Shown one piece after another: positions 4,350-40,288 of a stretch of DNA of 64,000 bases. Both the position numbers and the translations under genes were made by a program. The notes under the pieces are model-generated. The model searched no databases, was not told the origin of the DNA, and saw only the letters and a list, made by a program, of their open reading frames with translations. Origin of the DNA: Dictyostelium discoideum (taxonomy: Eukaryota); NCBI GenBank assembly GCA_000004695.1, contig CM000152.2, positions 3,328,001-3,392,000 on the forward strand. The letters run 5' to 3'. The first letter of the stretch is position 1; each line of letters starts with the position of its first letter.

Positions 4350-4450
4350 ATAAAAGAAAAAAAAAAAGAATTAAGAAAAAAAAAAAAAAAAAAAAGATAT
4401 ATACATTGTCTTAATACAAACTTTTTTTTTTTTCTTTTTTTTAGGTAATT

Positions 4451-4493
<43 letters not shown>

Positions 4494-5718: not shown

Positions 5719-7351
5719 TTTTTTTTTTTTTTTATTATTTTATTTTATTTTATTTTATTATTTTATTTTTTTATTTTATTTTATTTTATTTTATTTTATT
5801 TTGTTTATTTATTTAATTTATTTAAATTACTTTATATTTAAAAAAAATTTAAAAATAATTTTTTTAAAAAATAATAAAAAAAAATAAAAATAATTAAAAA
5901 ATTATATGGTATTTTATTACTTGTATTTTTTTTAAACTTATTATTATTATTATTATTATTTCTAATATAAATTTTTATTATAATTATAAAAAATTATAAA
6001 GAAAAATAAAAAAGAAATTATTTAAATAAAAAAAAACTATCTAATGTCGAAAAGTTAATTAATATATTATTTATATTTATATAATTTTTTTATTATTTTT
6101 ATTTTTTTTTTTATTTTTTTTTATTTTTTTTTATTTTTTTTTATTTTTTTTTATTTTTTTTTTATTCTATATTATTAAATTATTTTGTTGTTATATTATA
6201 TTATTTTTTTTTTTTTTTTTTTTTTTTAAATGTTATATCTTATAAAAAACAATTGAAATCGATATTTTAATTTTCTTTTTTTTTATTTTTATTTTTTATT
6301 TTTTATTTTTTATTTTTTATTTTTTATTTTACTTTATTATTTTATTATTTTTTTTAAAATTTTAGATTTGAAATTAAATTGTTAAAATATTAAAAATATT
6401 AATTAAAATTATTTTATTATTTAAATATTAAAAAAAAAAAAAATAAAAAAAAAAAAAAAAATGAAATTTAATAATGTTTTTTGTTTGTTGGTGTGTGTCA
6501 GGGTGTGTTTGTGTGTGTGAAAAATTTTGAGTGTTTTGTTTGGGTATTTGGGAAATTATTATAAAATCATATGAGATAGTTGGTAGTAGAAAAACAACCA
6601 TTAAAATGTACAAATTTAGTAATTTTATCAAGGAGCCCTAAATTTATAAATAATAATTATAATGGAAAAATAATAGGTGGGAATTTTAAAATGTGGTCAT
6701 AGTTTCACTATCACTATCAGTGTTTATTAATTTAAAGTTTATTTAAATTTTTTTTTTTTTTTTTTTTCTGGTTCTTAAAAAATTAAAAAAAATTAATTTT
6801 ATTTTATTTTTAGGTCTATAATTTTAGTGGGTGGGGGTAGTGTTTGGAAATAAAATTAAATTGTTTTTTTTTTTGTTTTTTTTTTTTTGAGATATTATTA
6901 ATTTTTTCAAATTTATTTAATTAATAAAAAAGTAACCCAATCTTTATATAGAAAAAAAAAAAAAAACCAAAAAATTAAATAATTCGTTTTTTTTACAATT
7001 TTTTTAAAAAAAAGGTGCATTATATCTAAAATTTTGTTGGTTTCTAGAATTTTATTTAGATTTAACAAACGAGAACTTTTTTTTTGAATTTTATTTTTTT
7101 TAATTTTTTTTTTAAAATAAACAAGACCAAATTTGGAATAAAATATTAATGGGGATAAAAAAAAGTTATATCGTGTTATATTGTGTTTGTGTTTGTGTGC
7201 ACAATTTTAAATATTAATACATATTTATATTGTGGGTGGTGTAAATAGTTTGAAAAAAAAAAAAAAAAAAAAAAAAAAAACCAATTTATTAATTTTTTTT
7301 CTTTGTCTGGATTTTTTTTTTTTTTTCAAAATTATTCTTTTAATTATTCTT

Positions 7352-7516
7352 TTAATTTTTATTTAATTCTTCAAGATCGTCTCCTAGTAAATTACCATTT
7401 ATATTTTTTGTAGTGTTTTCATCTAAATTTAAATTTATTAACTCAGAATTACCACTACTACAACTACTATTTTTAACTTCTTTTTGTTCATCTCCTTCGA
7501 CATCAACCAATAATAA

Positions 7517-31341: not shown

Positions 31342-31344
<3 letters not shown>

Positions 31345-34300
31345 AGTAATAATGAAAACGTAATTTTTTCGGGTGATGGAAAAGGTTTATCATTTCGTAA
31401 ATTCAAACACTTACTCTTATTAATTCATGGCGAGGAAATATCGAAAGCTGATATTATTAGAAAACTAAGAAACAATGCATTGGAATATGCCGCAACATTG
31501 GATACAGACTTAACAGCAATGGAGATAATTGAAGATCTTAAAGATGCTTTTGATATTGGTGATAGTGATGATTTATCAGATTTAACAAAGTTGGGAGAAT
31601 ATAAATACAATACATTAGATATATTAGTTGGTAAATTTCTTTCAAAATGTTCAGCAGTTGATATTTCAGAAAAGTTTAAAATACAATTGTTTTATTCAGC
31701 TGTTGGTATTGAATTGGGTATTGAAATTACAAAATGTGCACCAAAATCATTAAAAAGAGCAATAGACATTGCAAAGTCTTGTGAAGATGGTTCAATTCGT
31801 ATGAGAGGTAGATCAATGTATACTGGTCAATTGGTTGCAAAAACATTACAAGAATTTGGAACTCAAAAGTATCTTGGTTCTGGATCTGGTTATACAACAT
31901 CACCACAGTACGTTACATCTCAAACTGAACAATCTACTGAAACTGAAGTATTAGCAACTCCAATTTATAAAAATCAAACATATTCACCACCACCATCACC
32001 TTATAAAGCACCACAAAATCAAGTAAATTCAATCACAAAATTTTGTAAATATTGCAAAAAGAAAGGTCATGTAATTCAAGAGTGTTGGTCTAAAGATAAA
32101 AAGAATAATTATAATGAGAATAAACAATCATATAATAATCATAGCACTAATGCAATTACAATGGTTAATGATAAAACGATTAATTCTATTGGAACTGATA
32201 GTATGAATGCAGCATTATTAATAAATGATAAGAATGTTAGAAGGTTAGTTGATACTGGTTCTTCTCTTACCATCATTTGGGAAAGTATTGCTAAAAAATT
32301 AAATTTAAAAGTTGAAGGTAAATCATTTTCAGTTAATTCAGCATCAAATAATGAAATTAAGATAGTTGGTAGTTGTGATACCATAATTAAATTAGGTAAA
32401 GCATCCGCAAAAGGTAATGTTAATATTGTTAAAGATAATGATACTTCAATCGATTGCATTTTTGGTGTAGATACACTTATTGGATTGAAATTAATAATTG
32501 ATTGCAAGGAAATGATCATTAAGAATCTTGAATTTAATGTTGGTACAAGATTAATCACCAGAGAAACCAAACCAATTGTTTGCAAAATTGATCTAAATAT
32601 ATTAGAAAAAGTATCAAAACCAATGGCTGAGTTATTAATCAAAAATGAAGAGATTTTTGAAACCAAATTGTCAAAACCAGGATCATTAATAGATGTTGAA
32701 CATTCAATTAAATTAACTGATGAAAATGTTTCTGTTTATACTCCACCATACAAAACTAGTCCAGCTGATAAAGAATTCATTGAAGAATACATTAAAGATG
32801 CATTAGATAAAGGTATAATCGAGAAATCAGATTCATCACAATACGGTTCTCCAATAGTCTTATCCAGAAAGAATGATAAAATTAGATTTTGTGTTAATTA
32901 TAAAAAACTAAATGACCTCACAATTAAAGATAGATATCCACTTCCATTAATTTCTGATTGTTGGTATTATCTCAAAGATGCAAAAGTTTTCTCAAAAATT
33001 GATCTTACTTCTGGTTATTATCAAATCAAAATGAAAGAAGAGGACAAGGATAAAACAACCTTTGTCTCTCATATGGGTCAATTTAGATATGTTGTAATGC
33101 CATTTGGATTATGTAATGCACCAGCAACTTTTCAAAGATACATGAATGAATTATTAAAAGATGAATTAAGAAAAAGTAATATTGGGTTTATTGACGATTG
33201 TATAATTTATAGCAAGAATAATGAATATCATATTGAACATGTCAAACTATTATTCGAAAAATTCAAAGAAAAAGGTGCAAAGTTACAAATAACTAAATGT
33301 GAGTTTGAAAAAGAAGAGATCAAGTTTTTGGGATATATCGTTTCAAAGAATGGTATTACTTATGATAGTTCAAAGTTTAATGAATTATTAAAAACACCAC
33401 CTCCATCAAATCAAAAAGAATTAATGAAATTACTCGGTACTGTCAATTACTTTAGAACATTCATTAAAAATTTCACTCATTTAACTTCATCATTTTATCC
33501 ACTATTAAAGAAGGGTGTTAATTTCAAATGGACTGATGAATTGGAAAATGATCGTGTAAAATTATTTACTACATTAGCACAAACTAATCTTTTAAGTTTT
33601 CCACAAGATACAGATGATAATGTTATTGAAACTGATGCTTCAATTATTGGTATTGGTGGTGTAATGATTCAAAATGGTAAACCAGTTTCTTATTATTCAA
33701 GAACATTAAACAACGCTGAAAAGAATTATTCTGTTACTGAAAGAGAATGTTTGGCAATCATTGAATCAATTAAATATTTTAAATCCTATATCAATGGTAG
33801 AAAAGTAAAAATCATCACTGATCATCAACCTTTGAAATATCTCTTAACTGGTAAATTTACTGATCGTATTACAAGATGGACTGTATTACTTCAAGAGTAT
33901 AATTACGAAATTATATATAGACCTGGTAAAGAAAACTTTTTAGCTGATGCATTATCAAGATGTCCAGATAGAGATCAACAGCCAATTGATTGTGATATTC
34001 CAGAAAAGATATTTACAATTACTCACTATCCAGTAGCTTCACCATCAACTACAATTTTACCAAGAGTCTTACCATCAAGATCAAATCAAACATCTAATGT
34101 TTCACCAGCTACAACAATTCAACCACCAAATTCATCAAGTTCAAATCAATCATCAAATATCCCACCAACAACAAACCAATCATCAAATATTACAAATCAA
34201 CCAATAAATACTTCATCAATGAATTTAAATCAATCATTATCAAATCCACCATCTCTTATTACAAATCAAGCAACAACCGCTAGATTATTGAATAGTGTAC

Positions 34301-35610
34301 CTATCTCAATCAACAATGATAATATTAATACAACAATTCCACAATTTACACAAGAGTCAATAAGAAAAGAGTTGGAAAAAGAAAATTATTATAGAGCAAT
34401 GTATAAATATCTTGAAGAAACAAGACTTCCAGACAATGCACAAGCAGCAAGAAGAATTTTGTTGGAGTCTGAATTTTATTCAATGATTAATGGATTTCTT
34501 TGTCACGGTTTAAAACATACTTTATCAAGTAAGAAATCTCATTTTAAACATCTTCAAATTGTAGTTCCAAAAACTATGACTAAATGGATAATGGAAATAT
34601 TTCATGATTCGCCACTTACTGGAGGACATTTTGGATTATTAAAAACTGTTGCAAAAATCAAAGAAAGATTCTATTGGATTGGTATGATTAAGGATATAAA
34701 AGAATTTATCGATAAATGTACAACTTGTTTACAAATTAAAAGAAAGTATGGTCCAAAAGAAGGTTTACTCATTCCAATTGAGATTGAACCTGAACCATTT
34801 AATACAATTGGTATTGATTTTATTGGTCCAATTACAAAAGATAATGCTCAAGTTTATTTGTTGGTTGTTATGGATTATTTTACTAAATGGCCAGAAGTTT
34901 TCTTTACCCTTGATATGGAAGGGGAGACTGTAGCTCAATTATTGTTGTATGAAATCTATACTAGATATGGGGTTCCAAAGAAGTTGGTTTCTGATCGTGG
35001 TAAGAATTTTTTAAGTAATGTAGTCTCTGGTGTTAATAAATTATTCGGTGTTCACAAATTAACAACTACTGCTTATCACCCACAATGTGATGGTCAAACT
35101 GAAAATTTCAATAATACATTAATTAAGATGCTCAAAGCTTTTATTGGTAATGAATTGTATGGCAATTGGGGTGAATTATTAAGATGTGTTTTATACTCAT
35201 ACAGAATTACACCACATGTTTCAACTGGTTTTTCACCCTTTTTCTTAATTTTTAATCGTCAACCAACTTTACCATTAGATACAACTTTAAATGTAAATTT
35301 TTATTCAAATTCACTAAGATTAGATTTCGCTGATAATTATGCACAATCCGTAAATAATAATCTTAAACGTGCCTTTTGGTTTACAAAGAATAATCATAAT
35401 CGTCCAACAAATATTCAAACAGGTGATTTTGTTTATTTACATACACCATATTCACAAACTTCTATTGGTCCAAAGAAATTCTATAAACCTTGGAGAGGTC
35501 CTTTTAAAATTCAAGAAAAAGTTAGCGATGTTACATTCAAATTAGATATGGGTAATCTTAGAGATCATAAAGTAGTCAATATTGAAAGATTGAAAAAAAT
35601 TTTCAACTAA
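31342..35610 (+). CDS. Retrotransposon Gag-Pol polyprotein (1422 aa, uninterrupted): CCHC zinc knuckle, aspartic protease, reverse transcriptase, RNase H, integrase
   Basis: CKYCKKKGHVIQECWSK (CCHC); LVDTGSSLT (protease DTG); RT motifs KIDLTSGYYQIKM, VMPFGLCNAPATFQRYMN, FIDDCIIYSKN (YxDD variant); RNase H IETDASIIGIGGVMIQ, TDHQPLKYL; integrase HHCC HDSPLTGGHFG...CTTCLQIK, catalytic GIDFIGPI, VVMDYFTKWPEVF, VSDRGKNF, YHPQCDGQTENFN. Confidence 0.9.
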
Positions 35611-35622: not shown

Positions 35623-35871
35623 TGTAATAAAGTTACTCTATAAAATTAATAGATATTAAATATGCATATTACATTACTAATTATAGTTGACACACATTTA
35701 AATAATATAATAATAATAATAATAATAATACTGTCAACTCATTATGAATAATATAAATACTAAAGAATAATTGTATAAACAATATTGAATATTATAAATA
35801 TAAACTAATATTAAATAAAGATAACAAAGTATTATTCAATTATATAATTATTAATTATATATATTTATAAA
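35623..35871 (+). repeat. 3' LTR, first 249 bp (interrupted after ...TATATATTTATAAA by the TRE5-like insertion; remainder GCTAACAAGCTTTATTACA at 38114..38132)
   Basis: Identical to 30921..31169; continuation found after the inserted element and its target-site duplication. Confidence 0.8.
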
Positions 35872-36196
35872 TTTTTTTTTTTTGAATTGGATAACGCAAT
35901 TATTATTTGCTTCTCCTTGAGATGCTAGATCTCATTTTATTTTTTTTTTTTTTTTTACAGGGTCTTTTTGATTAAAACATCTTTTTTGTCCAAACTTTTT
36001 TCTAAATCTTTTTTTATTTTATCGTCTGGTTCGTGATTGATGTTTATGACGTATTTGAATTGTTTTTTTTTTAATTGAGTTTTATCCACAATTTCGCTTA
36101 TTTTTTGTAGGCATTTGTGTTGCTTAATATTTGTGGTGTTGTTTGTGATTTTCATTTTATTTTCTTTCTATCTTTTTTATTTTTCTGATTAACTTG

Positions 36197-36257
<61 letters not shown>

Positions 36258-36553
36258 TTATAGAAAGTACTGAGTGAATTATTGTATTTTTTGAGATGTT
36301 TAGGAAGTTCTATTGCGGGTGTTGATGATGATTTGTGACACCCCTTGTCCTGTTTTATCAATTGGTGCGTGGTGTGTTATTTTGTTTTTATATTGTTGAT
36401 TTATTGAGTAAATTTTATTTGTTTTTATATTTGTTTCAGTTAGAAGTGCTGCGTCCAGCTTGTTGTTGTCTAAAACGGTGTTTATTATGCTGGCAGATTG
36501 GATGGTGTTGGATCCTTGGACGTTCCAAACACCTATTCTTATTGTGTTTTTCT

Positions 36554-37882
36554 TTATAGTTTTATTTGGGGTAGATTTTTATCTACCTTTTGAAGTTTCT
36601 GGTTTATTTTGTCTTCTAACTGATCTTTACTTTGTTCGTTGTGTTGTTGGTCTTGTGTGTTTGTGGGGTTTTTTGATTTATTGATTTGTTTTAGAATTTC
36701 CTTGTTGAAGTTGTCTATATCTTCATCCATTTTTGTTTTTATGCTTTTTTGTCCATATTCACCCAATTTTGGTTTGACTGGTGTTTTGTTGTTTGTTTTG
36801 TCTTGTTGTTTCTTTTTTGGTGTGTTTAACAATTTACTTGGTGAATCGATAATTTTCGATGGTGTACCATAGGTTGGGCTGAAACTCATGATATGTTTTA
36901 TTGGAGAGGAGAAGAACCATTGATTTGAAGGGATTGAAAGTGGGAATTCTATTTTTCTTATTGCATCAGTGTTTGGGCTGGTGAAGTCGAAGATATCATT
37001 TGCCTCTCTAAGTTTTTCTTCCGTTGTTAGTCCCTTTGTTTCGCCGTGTTGTTTTATTGGTGTATTGTATGGAGATGGTGGTTCGATAGGTTTTTCTGAT
37101 TTTGTTTTAATTTCTTGATTGTTTATCGATTGTGTATTGATCTCATTCTCTATTCTTGTTAGTTCATCTACGTTTTCTAGTGATGCTTCTATTACCTTTT
37201 GAGCTGTATCATCTAGGGCCATAAATGTTTTATCATTAGATGAGGATGTGATTGGTGGGATAATGATTGTTCTTTTTCCTTGTTTTGGTATTTGTTCTGA
37301 TGTAGATTGTGGTTGTTGTTCATCTGATTGTTTTTTATTTTTGTTTTCTTCTTGATTTTCTGGTAATGAGGTTTGCTCTCTCCCTCCTTTGTTGGAGTCT
37401 CCAATTAATGTTAGATTGTCTAGTTCAATGATAGTGTCAAATTCTTCTACGACTCTTTTCACTGTTTTGATAATTAGAGTTTCGCCTTTAATTTCTAATT
37501 TAATTAGTTTACATCCTTCATTTTCTATTACCCATTCTATTTCTGTGAGTGATTTATACCAATCAAAATCTGTATACATATTTTTTGGTCTTATAGTGGT
37601 TATAAATTGTCCTTTTAATTCTGCATCAAACATATTTACAAAATAGATTACTGTACTAATACTGTCTGTGAGAATTTTGAATGTATTATTACTTTTGATT
37701 AAAACATCTTTTTTGTCCAAACTTTTTTCTAAATCTTTTTTTATTTTATCGTCTGGTTCGTGATTGATGTTTATGACGTATTTGAATTGTTTTTTTTTTA
37801 ATTGAGTTTTATCCACAATTTCGCTTATTTTTTGTAGGCATTTGTGTTGCTTAATATTTGTGGTGTTGTTTGTGATTTTCAT
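36554..37882 (-). CDS. ORF1 of the TRE5-like element (442 aa, basic/Lys-rich, Gag-like nucleic-acid-binding protein); no ORF2 (RT/endonuclease) present
   Basis: Track ORF; its first 63 codons lie inside the direct repeat and are duplicated at 35955..36155; composition typical of LINE ORF1. Confidence 0.6.
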   Translation of the reverse strand: MKITNNTTNIKQHKCLQKISEIVDKTQLKKKQFKYVININHEPDDKIKKDLEKSLDKKDVLIKSNNTFKILTDSISTVIYFVNMFDAELKGQFITTIRPKNMYTDFDWYKSLTEIEWVIENEGCKLIKLEIKGETLIIKTVKRVVEEFDTIIELDNLTLIGDSNKGGREQTSLPENQEENKNKKQSDEQQPQSTSEQIPKQGKRTIIIPPITSSSNDKTFMALDDTAQKVIEASLENVDELTRIENEINTQSINNQEIKTKSEKPIEPPSPYNTPIKQHGETKGLTTEEKLREANDIFDFTSPNTDAIRKIEFPLSIPSNQWFFSSPIKHIMSFSPTYGTPSKIIDSPSKLLNTPKKKQQDKTNNKTPVKPKLGEYGQKSIKTKMDEDIDNFNKEILKQINKSKNPTNTQDQQHNEQSKDQLEDKINQKLQKVDKNLPQIKL

Positions 37883-37957
37883 TTTATTTTCTTTCTATCT
37901 TTTTTATTTTTCTTTAAAAAGTTAAAAATCTGGAAATTTTCTAATTAACTTGGTTCC

Positions 37958-37962
<5 letters not shown>

Positions 37963-38026
<64 letters not shown>
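37963..38026. repeat. 64-nt poly(T) run (poly(A) on the element strand) embedded about 70 nt from the 5' end of the TRE5-like element
   Basis: seen directly. Confidence 0.9.
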
Positions 38027-38029
<3 letters not shown>

Positions 38030-38145
38030 TCTTTTTTATATGAAAAATGAAATAATCAAAAAAAGAGATTGTTGTTGTTGTTTGTTTTTTTCGATCTCAT
38101 ATATATTTATAAAGCTAACAAGCTTTATTACATGAAAAACATCAA

Positions 38146-38218
38146 GGTTTTATAGTGTAATTGGTTAGCACCCAGGACTTTGAATCCTGTAATCTGAGTT
38201 CGAGTCTCAGTAGAACCA
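38146..38218 (+). tRNA. tRNA-Gln(UUG): tRNA-Gln, anticodon UUG (73 nt, discriminator A, CCA not encoded)
   Basis: Cloverleaf: acceptor GGTTTTA/TAGAACC, D-arm GTGT-AATTGGTTA-GCAC, anticodon stem CAGGA/TCCTG with loop CTTTGAA, T-arm CTGAG-TTCGAGT-CTCAG (B box GGTTCGAGTC); A box TAGTGTAATTGG; T5 terminator follows. Confidence 0.85.
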
Positions 38219-38219
38219 C

Positions 38220-38224
38220 TTTTT
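38220..38224 (+). terminator. RNA polymerase III terminator (T5 run) 2 nt after the tRNA
   Basis: TTTTT directly downstream of discriminator base. Confidence 0.6.
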
Positions 38225-38254
38225 ATTATTTCAAATTTCAAATTTCAAATCGCT

Positions 38255-38265
38255 GGTTCGATTCC
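38255..38265 (+). promoter_or_regulatory. External B box (exB) GGTTCGATTCC 37 bp downstream of the tRNA gene
   Basis: Near-consensus TFIIIC B-box (GGTTCGAATCC) with no associated A box or acceptor stem; extra downstream B boxes are a known feature of Dictyostelium tRNA loci. Confidence 0.5.
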
Positions 38266-39338
38266 ATATGGTGGAGAAATAAGCAATTAATGACTTGTGG
38301 TTCATGAACAAAAAAGTGGAAACTCAGATCAAAATTATAAAAATCCATTATAAATCTTCCTGGTACTAATCCTTTATTATTGAAAGATTATGCTAGAATT
38401 GGTTCTAACTTCAAATATAAGAGGTCTTGTCCAAAAAACAAAGAAATCCACAAAATTACACCTATAAATACACTAAGTATGCAGATGGATCATGAGGTAA
38501 AATAGACAACCCAAATCTTAGATTCTACAAAGAATACTTTAAATGGGGATATAAATGTGTAAATTGTGACCTATCCCTCATATAGAAACATAATTGCATT
38601 AATAATTCATAACATCTGTGTGGGATGTGCACTCAATTTTATAGTAATGAAAAGCTATCATACTAGATTCTATTTAATGTTACAAACCAGTAACTATAGA
38701 ATATAAAAGAAAAAAAATTGAAATTAACTCTTCCAAAGGATCTTATCAATTTTAAAGTCTCAAACAATTTCTTAAAAATGAATTATTAAATTAAGAAAAT
38801 TAACTTGCAAAGTATATTCCCTAATCAGTGCTTCCAACTAGGTTGGAACAAAAAATAATAAAATGGGTCAGTAGAAATGGATTAATCTCCTTTGACCAAA
38901 TCATTATTTGATAAAAAAAATATTTTAATTTTAATAATAACTAATCATGCTCGAAATGTACCATTGAAAATAGCTAGCTCACTATCTTGTTTGAAAATCA
39001 TGAAACTGCTGGTTTAATTGGTATGGAATGTTGCTCAACTATCTACAATGAATCAGAATGCCTGCAAAGACATCAGTATTGATCGATTTCAAGATTTATA
39101 TTAACTTTCATAATTTCAAAATAAATTGGGGACTCAAACACCACATCCGCCCAATTCATTGGTTTATGCGGTTCCAAACACTACACATCCAATAATATTT
39201 AAATGAAAAAAAAAATCTTAATTAAAGGTTTATAATTGAATCAAAAATTATTTAAAACAACTATTTTATATTTTTATTAATTTTTAAATTCTAATTTAAA
39301 AAAAAAAAAAGACACAAATTTAGGTAACCATCAATATT

Positions 39339-39898
39339 TTAAATATGATTATGATATATTGGTTCATTTTGCCAATTATCAGTTGCACCATCTAAAAATG
39401 TAACCTTTAATTTTGAAAGTTGTTCATGAGTAATGCCTTCGATTGTATTAACGTTAACAGCATAAAATGGAGCATTTGGAACACCTTCCATTTTGACAAG
39501 AGTATATGTATTAACACCACAGGCTTTGCAAAAATAGTTATCATTTATCTTTGAACCATATAGGTAATTTTCTTGATCATTTTCACCTTTTAATACTTTG
39601 AAATCTTTAGGGCAAACAATAATTTCCCAAAATCTAGTTTTTAAACAATATGCTTTTTTTTTTTTTTTTTTAAAAAAATTTATTTTATGTTTTATTAATA
39701 TTTAATTTTGTTTTATTTGATTTCTTTTATTTTTTTTTTTTTTTTTTATTTAATTTTAAAATAAAAATTGGTATACTTACAACAATTACATCTTAAAGTT
39801 TCTGATTTTAATAATTCAGTTTCAAGTTTACATTGAAATCTAACATTACCACAATGGCATGATCCAAAAAATTCTTTACTATTTTCATTAATATCCAT
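39339..39898 (-). CDS. GFA-family (glutathione-dependent formaldehyde-activating enzyme / CENP-V-like) zinc-binding protein, 143 aa; model join(39898..39781,39652..39339)
   Basis: MDINENSKEFFGSCHCGNVRF ... RCNC|SYCLKTRFW ... CKACG: the CxC...CxC-[ST]-xC zinc ligands of the GFA fold; GTAAGT donor at 39780, poly(A)-rich intron, AAAAAG acceptor at 39653, phase 1 verified; not in the supplied ORF track because neither exon has a long ORF. Confidence 0.6.
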
Positions 39899-40288
39899 TT
39901 TTATGTATTTTTTTTTATTTTTGTGAGAGTGAATAATAAGATGAAATTATTGACGTGTGGTGAAATGGTGAAATGAAAATCTTTTGAACAAAAAAATAAA
40001 AAAAAAAATTTTTTTTGTTGTTTTTATACCTTTCACAACCTTCAGTTTGAAATATCTTTTTTTTTTTTTTAATTTTTTTTTTATTATTTTTAAATAATGA
40101 AAGGTCACTATTTAATTACAAGAAAATCAATTTTTATTCGAAATTTAATTAATTTTTGCAGGCCAGTCCCAATCTGATGGTGCTATTTCAAAAATATCTC
40201 AAATCAAATTATTTTAATTTTATTTTTAGTTCAAATAATTAACCTAAACTTTTTTTTTTTTTTTTGATTGGAAATAATGATTTGAATA

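What the first reader, a model, noticed from the sequence alone, without database searches (positions are those of the whole stretch)
38280..39230. About 950-bp ORF-free block of atypically balanced base composition immediately downstream of the tRNA and its external B box
Almost every non-coding stretch in this window is over 85% A+T with long homopolymers. This segment instead has roughly 35% G+C, no homopolymer runs, and no ORF over 60 codons on either strand. Its 5' end abuts the tRNA-Gln exB box (38255..38265) and its other end abuts the GFA-family gene's 3' flank. The region downstream of tRNA genes, beyond an exB box, is the described target of TRE3-type non-LTR elements. A 5'-truncated or UTR-only retroelement remnant, another fossil repeat, or a structured non-coding RNA are the candidates. 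Nothing in my annotation explains it.
Basis: seen in the sequence. Interest (0 to 1): 0.5.

Follow-up and report, generated by a model that had tools for sequence, protein, structure and literature searches.

The report
Dead TRE3 retrotransposon fragments behind tRNA
The odd non-coding block behind the tRNA-Gln gene is the decayed wreck of tRNA-targeting TRE3-type retrotransposon copies, an ordinary and well-described feature of the Dictyostelium discoideum genome.

Summary
The window is D. discoideum AX4 chromosome 3. The block (about 38267-39215) has no ORF over 48 codons and 27.9% G+C, against 9.6-18.3% in the window's 15 other long ORF-free stretches. The stated 35% G+C and 'no homopolymers' are wrong.

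The core, 38394-38920 on the + strand, is the 3' end of a TRE3-type non-LTR retrotransposon: the last ~170 codons of ORF2, a very short 3' UTR and an A8 tail remnant. It aligns to a copy in D. cf. discoideum (71% over 429 bp, E 3e-62). It also aligns to a full-length D. discoideum TRE3 that sits behind a tRNA-Glu gene (E 1.5e-21). At least eight frame-breaking indels and many stops show it is dead.

Segment 38301-38393, on the - strand, is an older reverse-transcriptase-motif relic shared with other strains. Segment 38921-39205 is unassigned and is probably also old relic.

Orthologous loci in eight other strains and species hold different mosaics at this spot. One D. citrinum strain has no block at all.

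There is no Rfam hit, no excess RNA structure and no protein homologue. The find is ordinary.

The parts
38146..38219 (+). tRNA-Gln(UUG) gene, the RNA polymerase III target that attracted the insertions
   Evidence: ARAGORN. Rfam tRNA model, 67.4 bits. Conserved in all nine orthologous loci.
38255..38265 (+). External B box (GGTTCGATTCC)
   Evidence: Read directly from the sequence. An identical or near-identical motif sits at the same place in loci L001-L009. Its role as an alternative TRE3 target comes from PMC5911963.
38267..38300 (.). Junction sequence between the external B box and the first relic. It is shared with strains L001 and L002, so it predates the AX4-specific piece.
   Evidence: Sensitive blastn of AX4 against L001 and L002. 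Sequences compared by eye.
38301..38393 (-). Older fragment of a TRE3-type reverse-transcriptase domain. It reads NNKGLVPGRFIMD..FYNFDLSFHFFVHE and is inverted relative to the tRNA.
   Evidence: tblastn against P0049 residues 909-957, E 0.002, and against P0034 residues 535-547, E 8e-4. DNA is 86-87% identical to the RT region of the L012 copy, E 4e-8, and 85% identical to L013 5378-5346. Window 38322-38393 is 88% identical to L002; the matching L001 stretch (38337-38394, 82%) lies inside the segment that is inverted in L001.
38394..38920 (+). 5'-truncated, decayed TRE3-type retrotransposon 3' end. It holds the last ~170 codons of ORF2 (ending ..ISFDQIII**), a very short 3' UTR and an A8 remnant of the poly(A) tail at 38913-38920.
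   Evidence: blastn against L012 3851-4277: 70.9% over 429 bp, E 3e-62. Against L011: E 5e-33. Against the full-length D. discoideum TRE3 in L013: 61% over 439 bp, E 1.5e-21. Colinear tblastn hits in three frames: P0020 E 1.6e-6, P0023 E 4.4e-6, plus P0021, P0022 and P0035. The MAFFT alignment gives 74-78% identity and 11-13 indels, 8 of them not multiples of three, and the tail aligns with the A33 tail of L012.
38921..39205 (.). Unassigned, non-AT-rich remainder, probably older relic. Window 39028-39185 is orthologous to sequence directly behind the external B box in D. cf. discoideum (L007). A 32-bp patch (39138-39169) recurs in L001 and L002 next to their NLNPHKSPG reverse-transcriptase relic.
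   Evidence: blastn: 81% to L007, E 2e-36; 91% over 32 bp to L001. RT relics in L001 and L002. No significant match to TRE3 proteins or TRE3 DNA.
39206..39215 (+). A10 run at the distal edge of the block, conserved in all D. discoideum-clade strains. It may be the shrunken tail of the oldest insertion (inference only).
   Evidence: Sequences. Homology to L001 and L002 resumes at 39183-39219.

Best explanation
The block is transposon debris with no function of its own. TRE3-type non-LTR retrotransposons recognise RNA polymerase III transcription complexes on tRNA genes. They integrate by target-primed reverse transcription some tens to about 150 bp downstream of the gene, in the same orientation as the tRNA. 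Copies are often heavily 5'-truncated.

At this tRNA-Gln gene at least two such events left fragments.
- **Older fragment.** A piece of the reverse-transcriptase region, now inverted, lies at 38301-38393. Segment 38921-39205 probably belongs to it.
- **Later fragment.** A 5'-truncated copy lies at 38394-38920 on the + strand and appears to split the older fragment. It consists of the last ~170 codons of ORF2, a short 3' UTR and an oligo(A) tail.

Both fragments have since decayed through stops, frameshifts, deletions and a 42-bp insertion. They still keep the roughly 28% G+C of former coding sequence. That is why the block stands out from the 10-18% G+C of ordinary intergenic DNA.

**Shown here:** homology to TRE3-type ORF2 and its 3' end, the orientation, the tail remnant, the decay, and the turnover between strains.

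**Inferred:** the order of events, that 38921-39205 belongs to the older fragment, and that the sequence is now functionless.
For: 1. **DNA homology.** The core aligns to dispersed copies at other loci. L012: E 3e-62. L011, behind a tRNA-Asp gene: E 5e-33. L013: E 1.5e-21.
2. **L013 is a bona fide TRE3.** It is a full-length element of about 5.3 kb encoding P0049 (1574 aa, with an RVT_1 hit). It starts about 80 bp behind a tRNA-Glu gene, lies in the same orientation and ends in poly(A). Relative P0034 carries the endonuclease and RVT_1 domains.
3. **Protein homology.** Colinear matches in three frames cover the ORF2 C-terminus. They include 'KLRKLTCKVY' and the terminal 'ISFDQ.I*'.
4. **The 3' end.** The relic's 3' end and A8 run align with the 3' end and A33 tail of L012.
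5. **RT-motif fragment on the - strand**.
6. **Recurrent insertion at the same site in relatives.**
   - L002 has a 125-bp poly(A)-tailed insert with the target-site duplication CCAGGTGG right behind the external B box.
   - L005 and L010 (D. firmibasis) have 5'-truncated copies with poly(A); L010's copy has the duplication CCGCCAAA.
   - L004 and L008 hold ORF2 C-terminal relics.
   - L006 has only 364 AT-rich bp and no block.
[quoted passage not shown] 61% of D. discoideum tRNA genes carry a TRE and 13% carry both TRE5 and TRE3 (PMC5006619).
Against: - Two searches of the large protein database found nothing: the six-frame translation at E<=0.1 and a frame-stitched translation at E<=0.01. 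The protein-level evidence therefore rests on small local searches. The DNA E-values are strong regardless.
- About 285 bp (38921-39205) has no detectable TRE3 similarity.
- No convincing target-site duplication flanks 38394-38920. The best candidate is gattatgc versus aatcatgc, 6 of 8 matches, and it does not abut the tail.
- The 5' junction lies 174 bp behind the tRNA, slightly outside the quoted 40-150 bp window. It is 129 bp behind the external B box.
- The literature says TREs usually form tandems and do not insert into each other (PMC5391098). Here the younger piece appears to split the older one.
- I had no named TRE3-A to TRE3-D consensus sequences, so the subfamily is unassigned.
Confidence: 0.9

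Rival explanations
1. The block is a remnant of a different tRNA-downstream element, the LTR retrotransposon Skipper-2 (formerly DGLT-P). That element has a degenerate ORF and is found 8-23 bp downstream of tRNA genes.
For: The literature describes such degenerate copies behind tRNA genes (PMC5006619). The unassigned 38921-39205 could in principle come from any element.
Against: - The core matches non-LTR ORF2 sequences that end in poly(A), not an LTR element.
- tblastx of the block against the whole window found nothing. The window includes a complete Ty3/gypsy-type polyprotein at 31342-35610.
- No direct or inverted terminal repeats were found.
- No Skipper-2 reference sequence was available, so the 285 unassigned bp remain untested.
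Confidence: 0.04
2. The block, or its unassigned part, encodes a non-coding RNA, such as a long ncRNA or a structured RNA transcribed next to the tRNA gene.
For: The composition is coding-like but there is no ORF. D. discoideum is known to make ORF-free polyadenylated RNAs such as dutA (my own knowledge, not tested here).
Against: - The only Rfam hit in 37900-39500 that reaches its family's gathering score is the tRNA; the other two matches up to E 10 are chance-level.
- The predicted folding energy is no better than shuffled sequence: z +0.57, with 12 of 20 shuffles folding at least as well.
- The sequence is not conserved even among D. discoideum isolates and is absent from one D. citrinum strain.
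- The composition is fully explained by descent from transposon coding sequence.
Confidence: 0.03
3. The block is a decayed pseudogene or a mis-annotated split gene of a host protein, not a transposon.
For: The composition is coding-like and there are short ORFs of up to 48 aa.
Against: - The six-frame search of 5.8 billion proteins gave no hit.
- The only homologues are C-termini of endonuclease/reverse-transcriptase ORF2 proteins and their fragments in Dictyostelium species.
- There are eight frame-breaking indels relative to the nearest copy.
Confidence: 0.01

Closest known systems
TRE3 family (TRE3-A to TRE3-D) of tRNA-gene-targeted non-LTR retrotransposons of Dictyostelium discoideum
   Same: - ORF2 C-terminal homology to a full-length element that has endonuclease and reverse-transcriptase domains.
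- Location behind a tRNA gene and its external B box.
- The main fragment has the same orientation as the tRNA.
- 5' truncation and an oligo(A) tail remnant.
   Different: - It is dead and fragmentary, at about 0.5 kb out of about 5.3 kb.
- It is only 61% identical at the DNA level to the one full-length D. discoideum copy I could fetch. It is closer (71-78%) to copies in D. cf. discoideum whose ORF2 ends ..ISFDQFI.
- The subfamily is not assigned.
- It is accompanied by an inverted RT fragment, and no clean target-site duplication is visible.
TRE3-like 5'-truncated copies at the orthologous tRNA-Gln locus and at other tRNA genes in sister species (D. firmibasis L005 and L010, D. citrinum L004, D. 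cf. discoideum L008, L011 and L012)
   Same: - Same element family and the same kind of site. For L005, L004 and L008 it is the same tRNA gene.
- Same orientation, and a poly(A) end where the copy is young.
   Different: - They are independent insertions with different truncation points and different ages.
- The young copies keep an open ORF2 tail, A29-A38 tails and 8-bp target-site duplications. The AX4 copy has lost all of these.
Skipper-2 (DGLT-P) degenerate LTR retrotransposon
   Same: Degenerate, low in copy number and found just downstream of tRNA genes.
   Different: It is an LTR/chromovirus-type element. The block instead matches non-LTR ORF2 and ends in an A run.

Membership tests
TRE3 non-LTR retrotransposons | Sequence homology to the ORF2 (endonuclease, reverse transcriptase, zinc finger) of TRE3 elements | tested here: met
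   - Window 38394-38920 aligns to L013, which encodes P0049 with an RVT_1 hit (E 1.5e-21), and to L012 (E 3e-62).
- tblastn hits reach E 1.6e-6.
- The RT motif at 38301-38393 is on the - strand.
- Only the RT-motif and C-terminal parts are present.
TRE3 non-LTR retrotransposons | Position 40-150 bp downstream of a tRNA gene, relative to the internal or the external B box | tested here: met
   - The composite block starts 48 bp behind the tRNA 3' end (38219 to 38267).
- The main fragment's 5' junction is 174 bp behind the tRNA and 129 bp behind the external B box.
- The window is quoted from PMC5911963.
TRE3 non-LTR retrotransposons | Same transcriptional orientation as the tRNA gene | tested here: met
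   - The main fragment 38394-38920 is on the + strand, like the tRNA.
- The small older fragment 38301-38393 is inverted.
- The corresponding segment is inverted between strains L001 and L002, so inversions do occur at this locus.
TRE3 non-LTR retrotransposons | 3' oligo(A) tail | tested here: met
   The A8 run at 38913-38920 aligns with the A33 tail of the L012 copy, directly after the conserved ORF2 end. The tail has shrunk.
TRE3 non-LTR retrotransposons | Target-site duplication flanking the insertion | tested here: inconclusive
   - The only candidate is gattatgc (38386-38393) versus aatcatgc (38941-38948), 6 of 8 matches, separated from the tail by an A/T-only stretch.
- Young relatives show clear 8-bp duplications.
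TRE3 non-LTR retrotransposons | Assignment to a named subfamily (TRE3-A, B, C or D) by match to the curated consensus | not testable with these tools
   No Dictyostelium repeat library or named TRE3 sequences were available. The relatives I found carry only 'hypothetical protein' names.
Skipper-2 / DGLT-P LTR retrotransposon | Similarity to Ty3/gypsy-type gag-pol, or presence of LTRs | tested here: not met
   - tblastx and blastn of the block against the whole window, which holds a complete gypsy-type polyprotein, gave no hit.
- No terminal repeats were found.
- This is a weak test because no Skipper-2 reference was available.
Structured non-coding RNA (any Rfam family) | Covariance-model match, or thermodynamic stability and conservation beyond background | tested here: not met
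   - The only Rfam hit that reaches its family's gathering score is the tRNA; the other two matches up to E 10 are chance-level.
- The fold z-score is +0.57.
- The sequence is not conserved among strains.

The most novel reading that the evidence does not exclude
The unassigned 285 bp (38921-39205), which is 81% conserved with D. cf. discoideum over 39028-39185, might not be TRE3 debris. It could be a fragment of an undescribed repeat, or a small functional element such as a transcribed RNA or a boundary element kept next to the tRNA gene. Separately, the locus shows unusually fast structural turnover between close strains: a 384-bp inversion, presence or absence of the block, and independent insertions. 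That turnover could make it a useful natural record of TRE3 integration and decay.
Probability: 0.06. Interest if true: 0.35.

Novelty: already known. Interest (0 to 1): 0.12.

Why it matters
It matters little beyond annotation. The result explains an unannotated, compositionally odd intergenic block as ordinary TRE3 debris at a tRNA gene. The same tRNA gene also carries what look like TRE5-type and DGLT-A-type elements upstream.

The result has two modest uses.
- Decayed relics, about 70% identical to the closest copies fetched here and with no protein-database hit, can be recognised by comparing the same locus in sister strains. They can also be recognised by seeding a search from a younger copy at the orthologous site.
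- The set of orthologous tRNA-Gln loci gives a small natural series of independent TRE3 insertions, deletions and an inversion at one target.

Tried and rejected
**Searches that found nothing**
1. Self-comparison of the block against the 64-kb window by blastn and tblastx gave only AT-rich noise.
2. An Rfam scan at E up to 10 found only the tRNA above its family's gathering score; the two other matches were chance-level.
3. The six-frame translation, joined into one 1949-aa query, gave no hit at E<=0.1 in the 5.8-billion-protein database.
4. The D. firmibasis RT fragment plus the 96-aa ORF as a query gave only one hit, P0018. A first attempt failed because the query was under 40 aa.
5. A frame-stitched conceptual translation of the AX4 relic gave no hit at E<=0.01.
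6. A scan for inverted repeats found no terminal inverted repeats, so the block is not a DNA transposon.

**Attempts to assign 38921-39205**
- I ran tblastn with permissive settings, stitched minus-strand peptides, and blastn and tblastx against all 13 fetched loci.
- Only the orthologous matches to L007, L001 and L002 appeared.
- 'HKPMNWADV' matched P0049 residues 788-796 at the expected position, but with E 3.4, which is not significant.

**Readings I revised**
- I first took the minus-strand 'LVPGRFIMD' to mean the whole block was a minus-strand RT relic. I then thought it was chance. DNA matches to the RT region of L012 and L013 showed it is a real but separate small fragment.
- The first DNA match to the D. 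firmibasis element was only marginal against shuffled sequence: 1 of 200 shuffles scored as high. I did not rely on it.

Full report
**Where the window comes from**

Exact look-ups of three proteins encoded near the finding place the window on D. discoideum AX4 chromosome 3.
- The 1422-aa polyprotein at 31342-35610 is DDB_G0280521.
- The 442-aa ORF at 36554-37882 on the - strand is DDB_G0280523.
- The two-exon GFA-family protein (39898..39339, - strand) is EAL67201.

**Checking the observation**

The tRNA-Gln(UUG) gene is at 38146-38219. The external B box GGTTCGATTCC is at 38255-38265.

G+C of 38280-39230 is 27.9%, not about 35%. The window mean is 22.7%. The block contains two A8 runs and one A10 run. 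No ORF over 48 aa overlaps it, which is what chance gives at this composition.

After masking all stop-free stretches of at least 80 codons, the window has 16 ORF-free segments of at least 300 bp. Fifteen have 9.6-18.3% G+C. The one with this block has 25.4%.

**First negative tests**
- The block has no repeat elsewhere in the window.
- The only Rfam hit that reaches its family's gathering score is the tRNA.
- It folds no better than shuffled sequence, z +0.57.
- It has no terminal inverted repeats.
- Its six-frame translation finds nothing among 5.8 billion proteins.

**Comparative genomics of the locus**

I fetched the orthologous locus through the GFA protein and its orthologues. The loci are:

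| Locus | Source |
|---|---|
| L001, L002, L003 | three further D. discoideum assemblies (L003 is AX4-like) |
| L004, L006 | two D. citrinum strains |
| L005 | D. firmibasis |
| L007, L008 | two D. cf. discoideum strains |
| L009 | D. dimigraforme |

All keep the pelota, GFA and tRNA-Gln arrangement.

L001 and L002 align to the window by megablast only at 38133-38266 and at 39219-39985. The block is therefore exactly the part that does not align.

The tRNA-to-GFA interval varies from 364 bp to 2567 bp. At 364 bp it is AT-rich with no block at all (L006).

Where a block exists it is a different mosaic in each lineage, with only patches of homology to AX4:
- 38322-38393 matches L002 at 88%; the L001 match (38337-38394, 82%) is inverted.
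- 39028-39185 matches L007 at 81%.
- 39138-39169 matches L001 (91%), and nearly the same patch (39139-39167) matches L002.

Such turnover argues against a constrained function.

**Young insertions in the relatives gave the lead**
- L002 carries a 125-bp insert with an A29 tail and the duplication CCAGGTGG directly behind the external B box.
- D. firmibasis L005 carries a 5'-truncated element with a 96-aa ORF, a 3' UTR and an A35 tail. It is inserted into an older fragment that reads VPGRFILDNIF...FYDFEKAF, a reverse-transcriptase motif.
- The 96-aa ORF has a paralogue, P0018. Its locus L010 shows the same 3' end about 85 bp behind a tRNA-Asn gene, in the same orientation, with poly(A) and the duplication CCGCCAAA.

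**Linking the lead to TRE3-type ORF2**

A full HMMER search with P0018 found 17 proteins. Nearly all that I looked up are short fragments predicted in Dictyostelium species.
- P0034 (1189 aa) carries endonuclease and RVT_1 domains and matches P0018 at its C-terminus.
- A cluster member, P0049 (1574 aa, D. discoideum), is encoded by L013. That locus holds a full-length element of about 5.3 kb. It starts about 80 bp behind a tRNA-Glu gene, lies in the same orientation and ends in poly(A).
- This is the published TRE3 behaviour: 40-150 bp downstream, same orientation, using the internal or the external B box (PMC5911963; PMC5006619).

**The AX4 block against these sequences: the core, 38394-38920**

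Local tblastn gives a colinear series of matches on the + strand in three frames, from 38377 to 38853, to the last ~170-200 residues of these ORF2 proteins.
- P0020 residues 53-138, E 1.6e-6.
- P0023 residues 218-267, E 4.4e-6.
- P0021, P0022 and P0028 also match.
- P0035 'ITKLRKLTCKVYCITES' aligns with 'IIKLRKLTCKVYSLISA'.
- The ORF end '..ISFDQIII**' at 38911 corresponds to '..IISFDQFI*'.

At the DNA level the matches are strong:

| AX4 segment | Subject | Identity | Length | E-value |
|---|---|---|---|---|
| 38452-38840 | L012 3851-4277 | 70.9% | 429 bp | 3e-62 |
| 38579-38823 | L011, behind tRNA-Asp | 69.7% | 271 bp | 5e-33 |
| 38406-38802 | L013 6849-7282 | 61% | 439 bp | 1.5e-21 |

The multiple alignment shows several things.
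- Identity in aligned columns is 74-78%.
- There are 11-13 indels, eight of them not multiples of three.
- AX4 has a 42-bp insertion.
- The A8 run at 38913-38920 aligns with the A33 tail of L012, about 12 nt after the stop codon.

So 38394-38920 is a dead, 5'-truncated TRE3-type 3' end in the orientation of the tRNA.

**The smaller piece, 38301-38393**

On the - strand this segment reads NNKGLVPGRFIMD..FYNFDLSFHFFVHE. It matches P0049 residues 909-957, NQKGFVPGRFILEN...FYDFEKAFDSISHE, with a 22-residue deletion (E 0.002).

Its DNA is 86-87% identical to the RT region of L012 (E 4e-8) and 85% identical to L013 5378-5346.

It is shared with L001 and L002. Their blocks also carry an 'IISNLNPHKSPG' relic of the RT N-terminal region, colinear with this one. 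The 384-bp segment that carries these relics is inverted between L001 and L002.

In AX4 the younger 3'-end fragment sits between this piece and the remainder of the block. This suggests it inserted into the older relic. That order of events is an inference.

**The remainder, 38921-39205**

No TRE3 protein or DNA match was found. It is orthologous to sequence directly behind the external B box in L007 (81%, E 2e-36). A 32-bp patch lies next to the RT N-terminal relic in L001 and L002.

I consider it probably older relic on the - strand, but this is not shown.

The A10 run at 39206-39215 is conserved in all D. discoideum-clade strains.

**Weak points**
- The protein-level evidence is local. The big-database searches were negative, including one with a frame-stitched translation.
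- No clean target-site duplication is visible.
- The 5' junction is 174 bp behind the tRNA.
- The subfamily (TRE3-A to D) cannot be named without the repeat library.
- The first marginal match to the D. firmibasis copy was equalled by 1 of 200 shuffles, so I did not rely on it.

**Verdict**

The block is ordinary TRE3-type retrotransposon debris at a tRNA gene that, from the ORFs and their positions, also appears to carry a TRE5-type element and a DGLT-A-type element upstream. I did not test those two identities further. This is a well-described situation in D. discoideum, where 61% of tRNA genes carry a TRE (PMC5006619). Interest is low.

Noticed in passing
window 35700-38100 (- strand): A probable TRE5-A-type non-LTR element sits head-to-head with the tRNA. 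It has a 442-aa ORF (DDB_G0280523, 36554-37882), about the size of the published 51-kD TRE5-A ORF1 (PMC5911963). It also has a perfectly duplicated 221-bp module (35966-36186 = 37693-37913) and a ~60-nt T run on the + strand (37966-38027). Its 5' end lies about 50 bp upstream of the tRNA. The element is present in the AX4-like strain L003. In the other eight loci fetched (L001, L002, L004-L009) a different gene is called in its place, in most of them an FNIP-repeat gene.
   Followed up: partly
window 31342-35610 (+ strand): A complete 1422-aa Ty3/gypsy-type polyprotein ORF (DDB_G0280521). It clusters at 90% identity with GenBank AAG37039 'polyprotein', so it is probably DGLT-A. It lies beyond the TRE5-like element, which makes this tRNA gene a triple retrotransposon target.
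   Followed up: partly
L001 6960-7330 versus L002 6900-7290 (orthologous blocks of two D. discoideum isolates): A segment of about 384 bp is inverted between the two isolates at 90% identity. It carries the 'NLNPHKSPG' and 'KGLVPGRF' reverse-transcriptase relics. The flanks are colinear, and no flanking inverted repeats were found.
   Followed up: partly
L002 about 7345-7470: A very short (about 125 bp) poly(A)-tailed (A29) insert with a perfect 8-bp target-site duplication, CCAGGTGG, lies immediately behind the external B box. It is absent from L001 and from AX4. It is a clean example of an extremely 5'-truncated TRE3-like insertion.
   Followed up: no
L006 versus L004 (two D. citrinum strains): There is a presence/absence polymorphism within one species. 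L006 has only 364 AT-rich bp between tRNA-Gln and GFA. L004 has 1175 bp, including a decayed TRE3 ORF2 C-terminal relic.
   Followed up: partly
L011 4001-4937: The gene model for the 'hypothetical protein' P0022 spans a tRNA-Asp gene (4381-4453) as if it were an intron. It joins sequence upstream of the tRNA to TRE3 relic sequence downstream, so the model is almost certainly spurious.
   Followed up: no
L009 6001-9303: In D. dimigraforme the GFA gene model is 303 aa over 3.3 kb, apparently a fusion. The GFA-to-tRNA interval is 2.5 kb and includes long runs that translate as poly-Y, poly-L and (IT)n, i.e. microsatellites.
   Followed up: no
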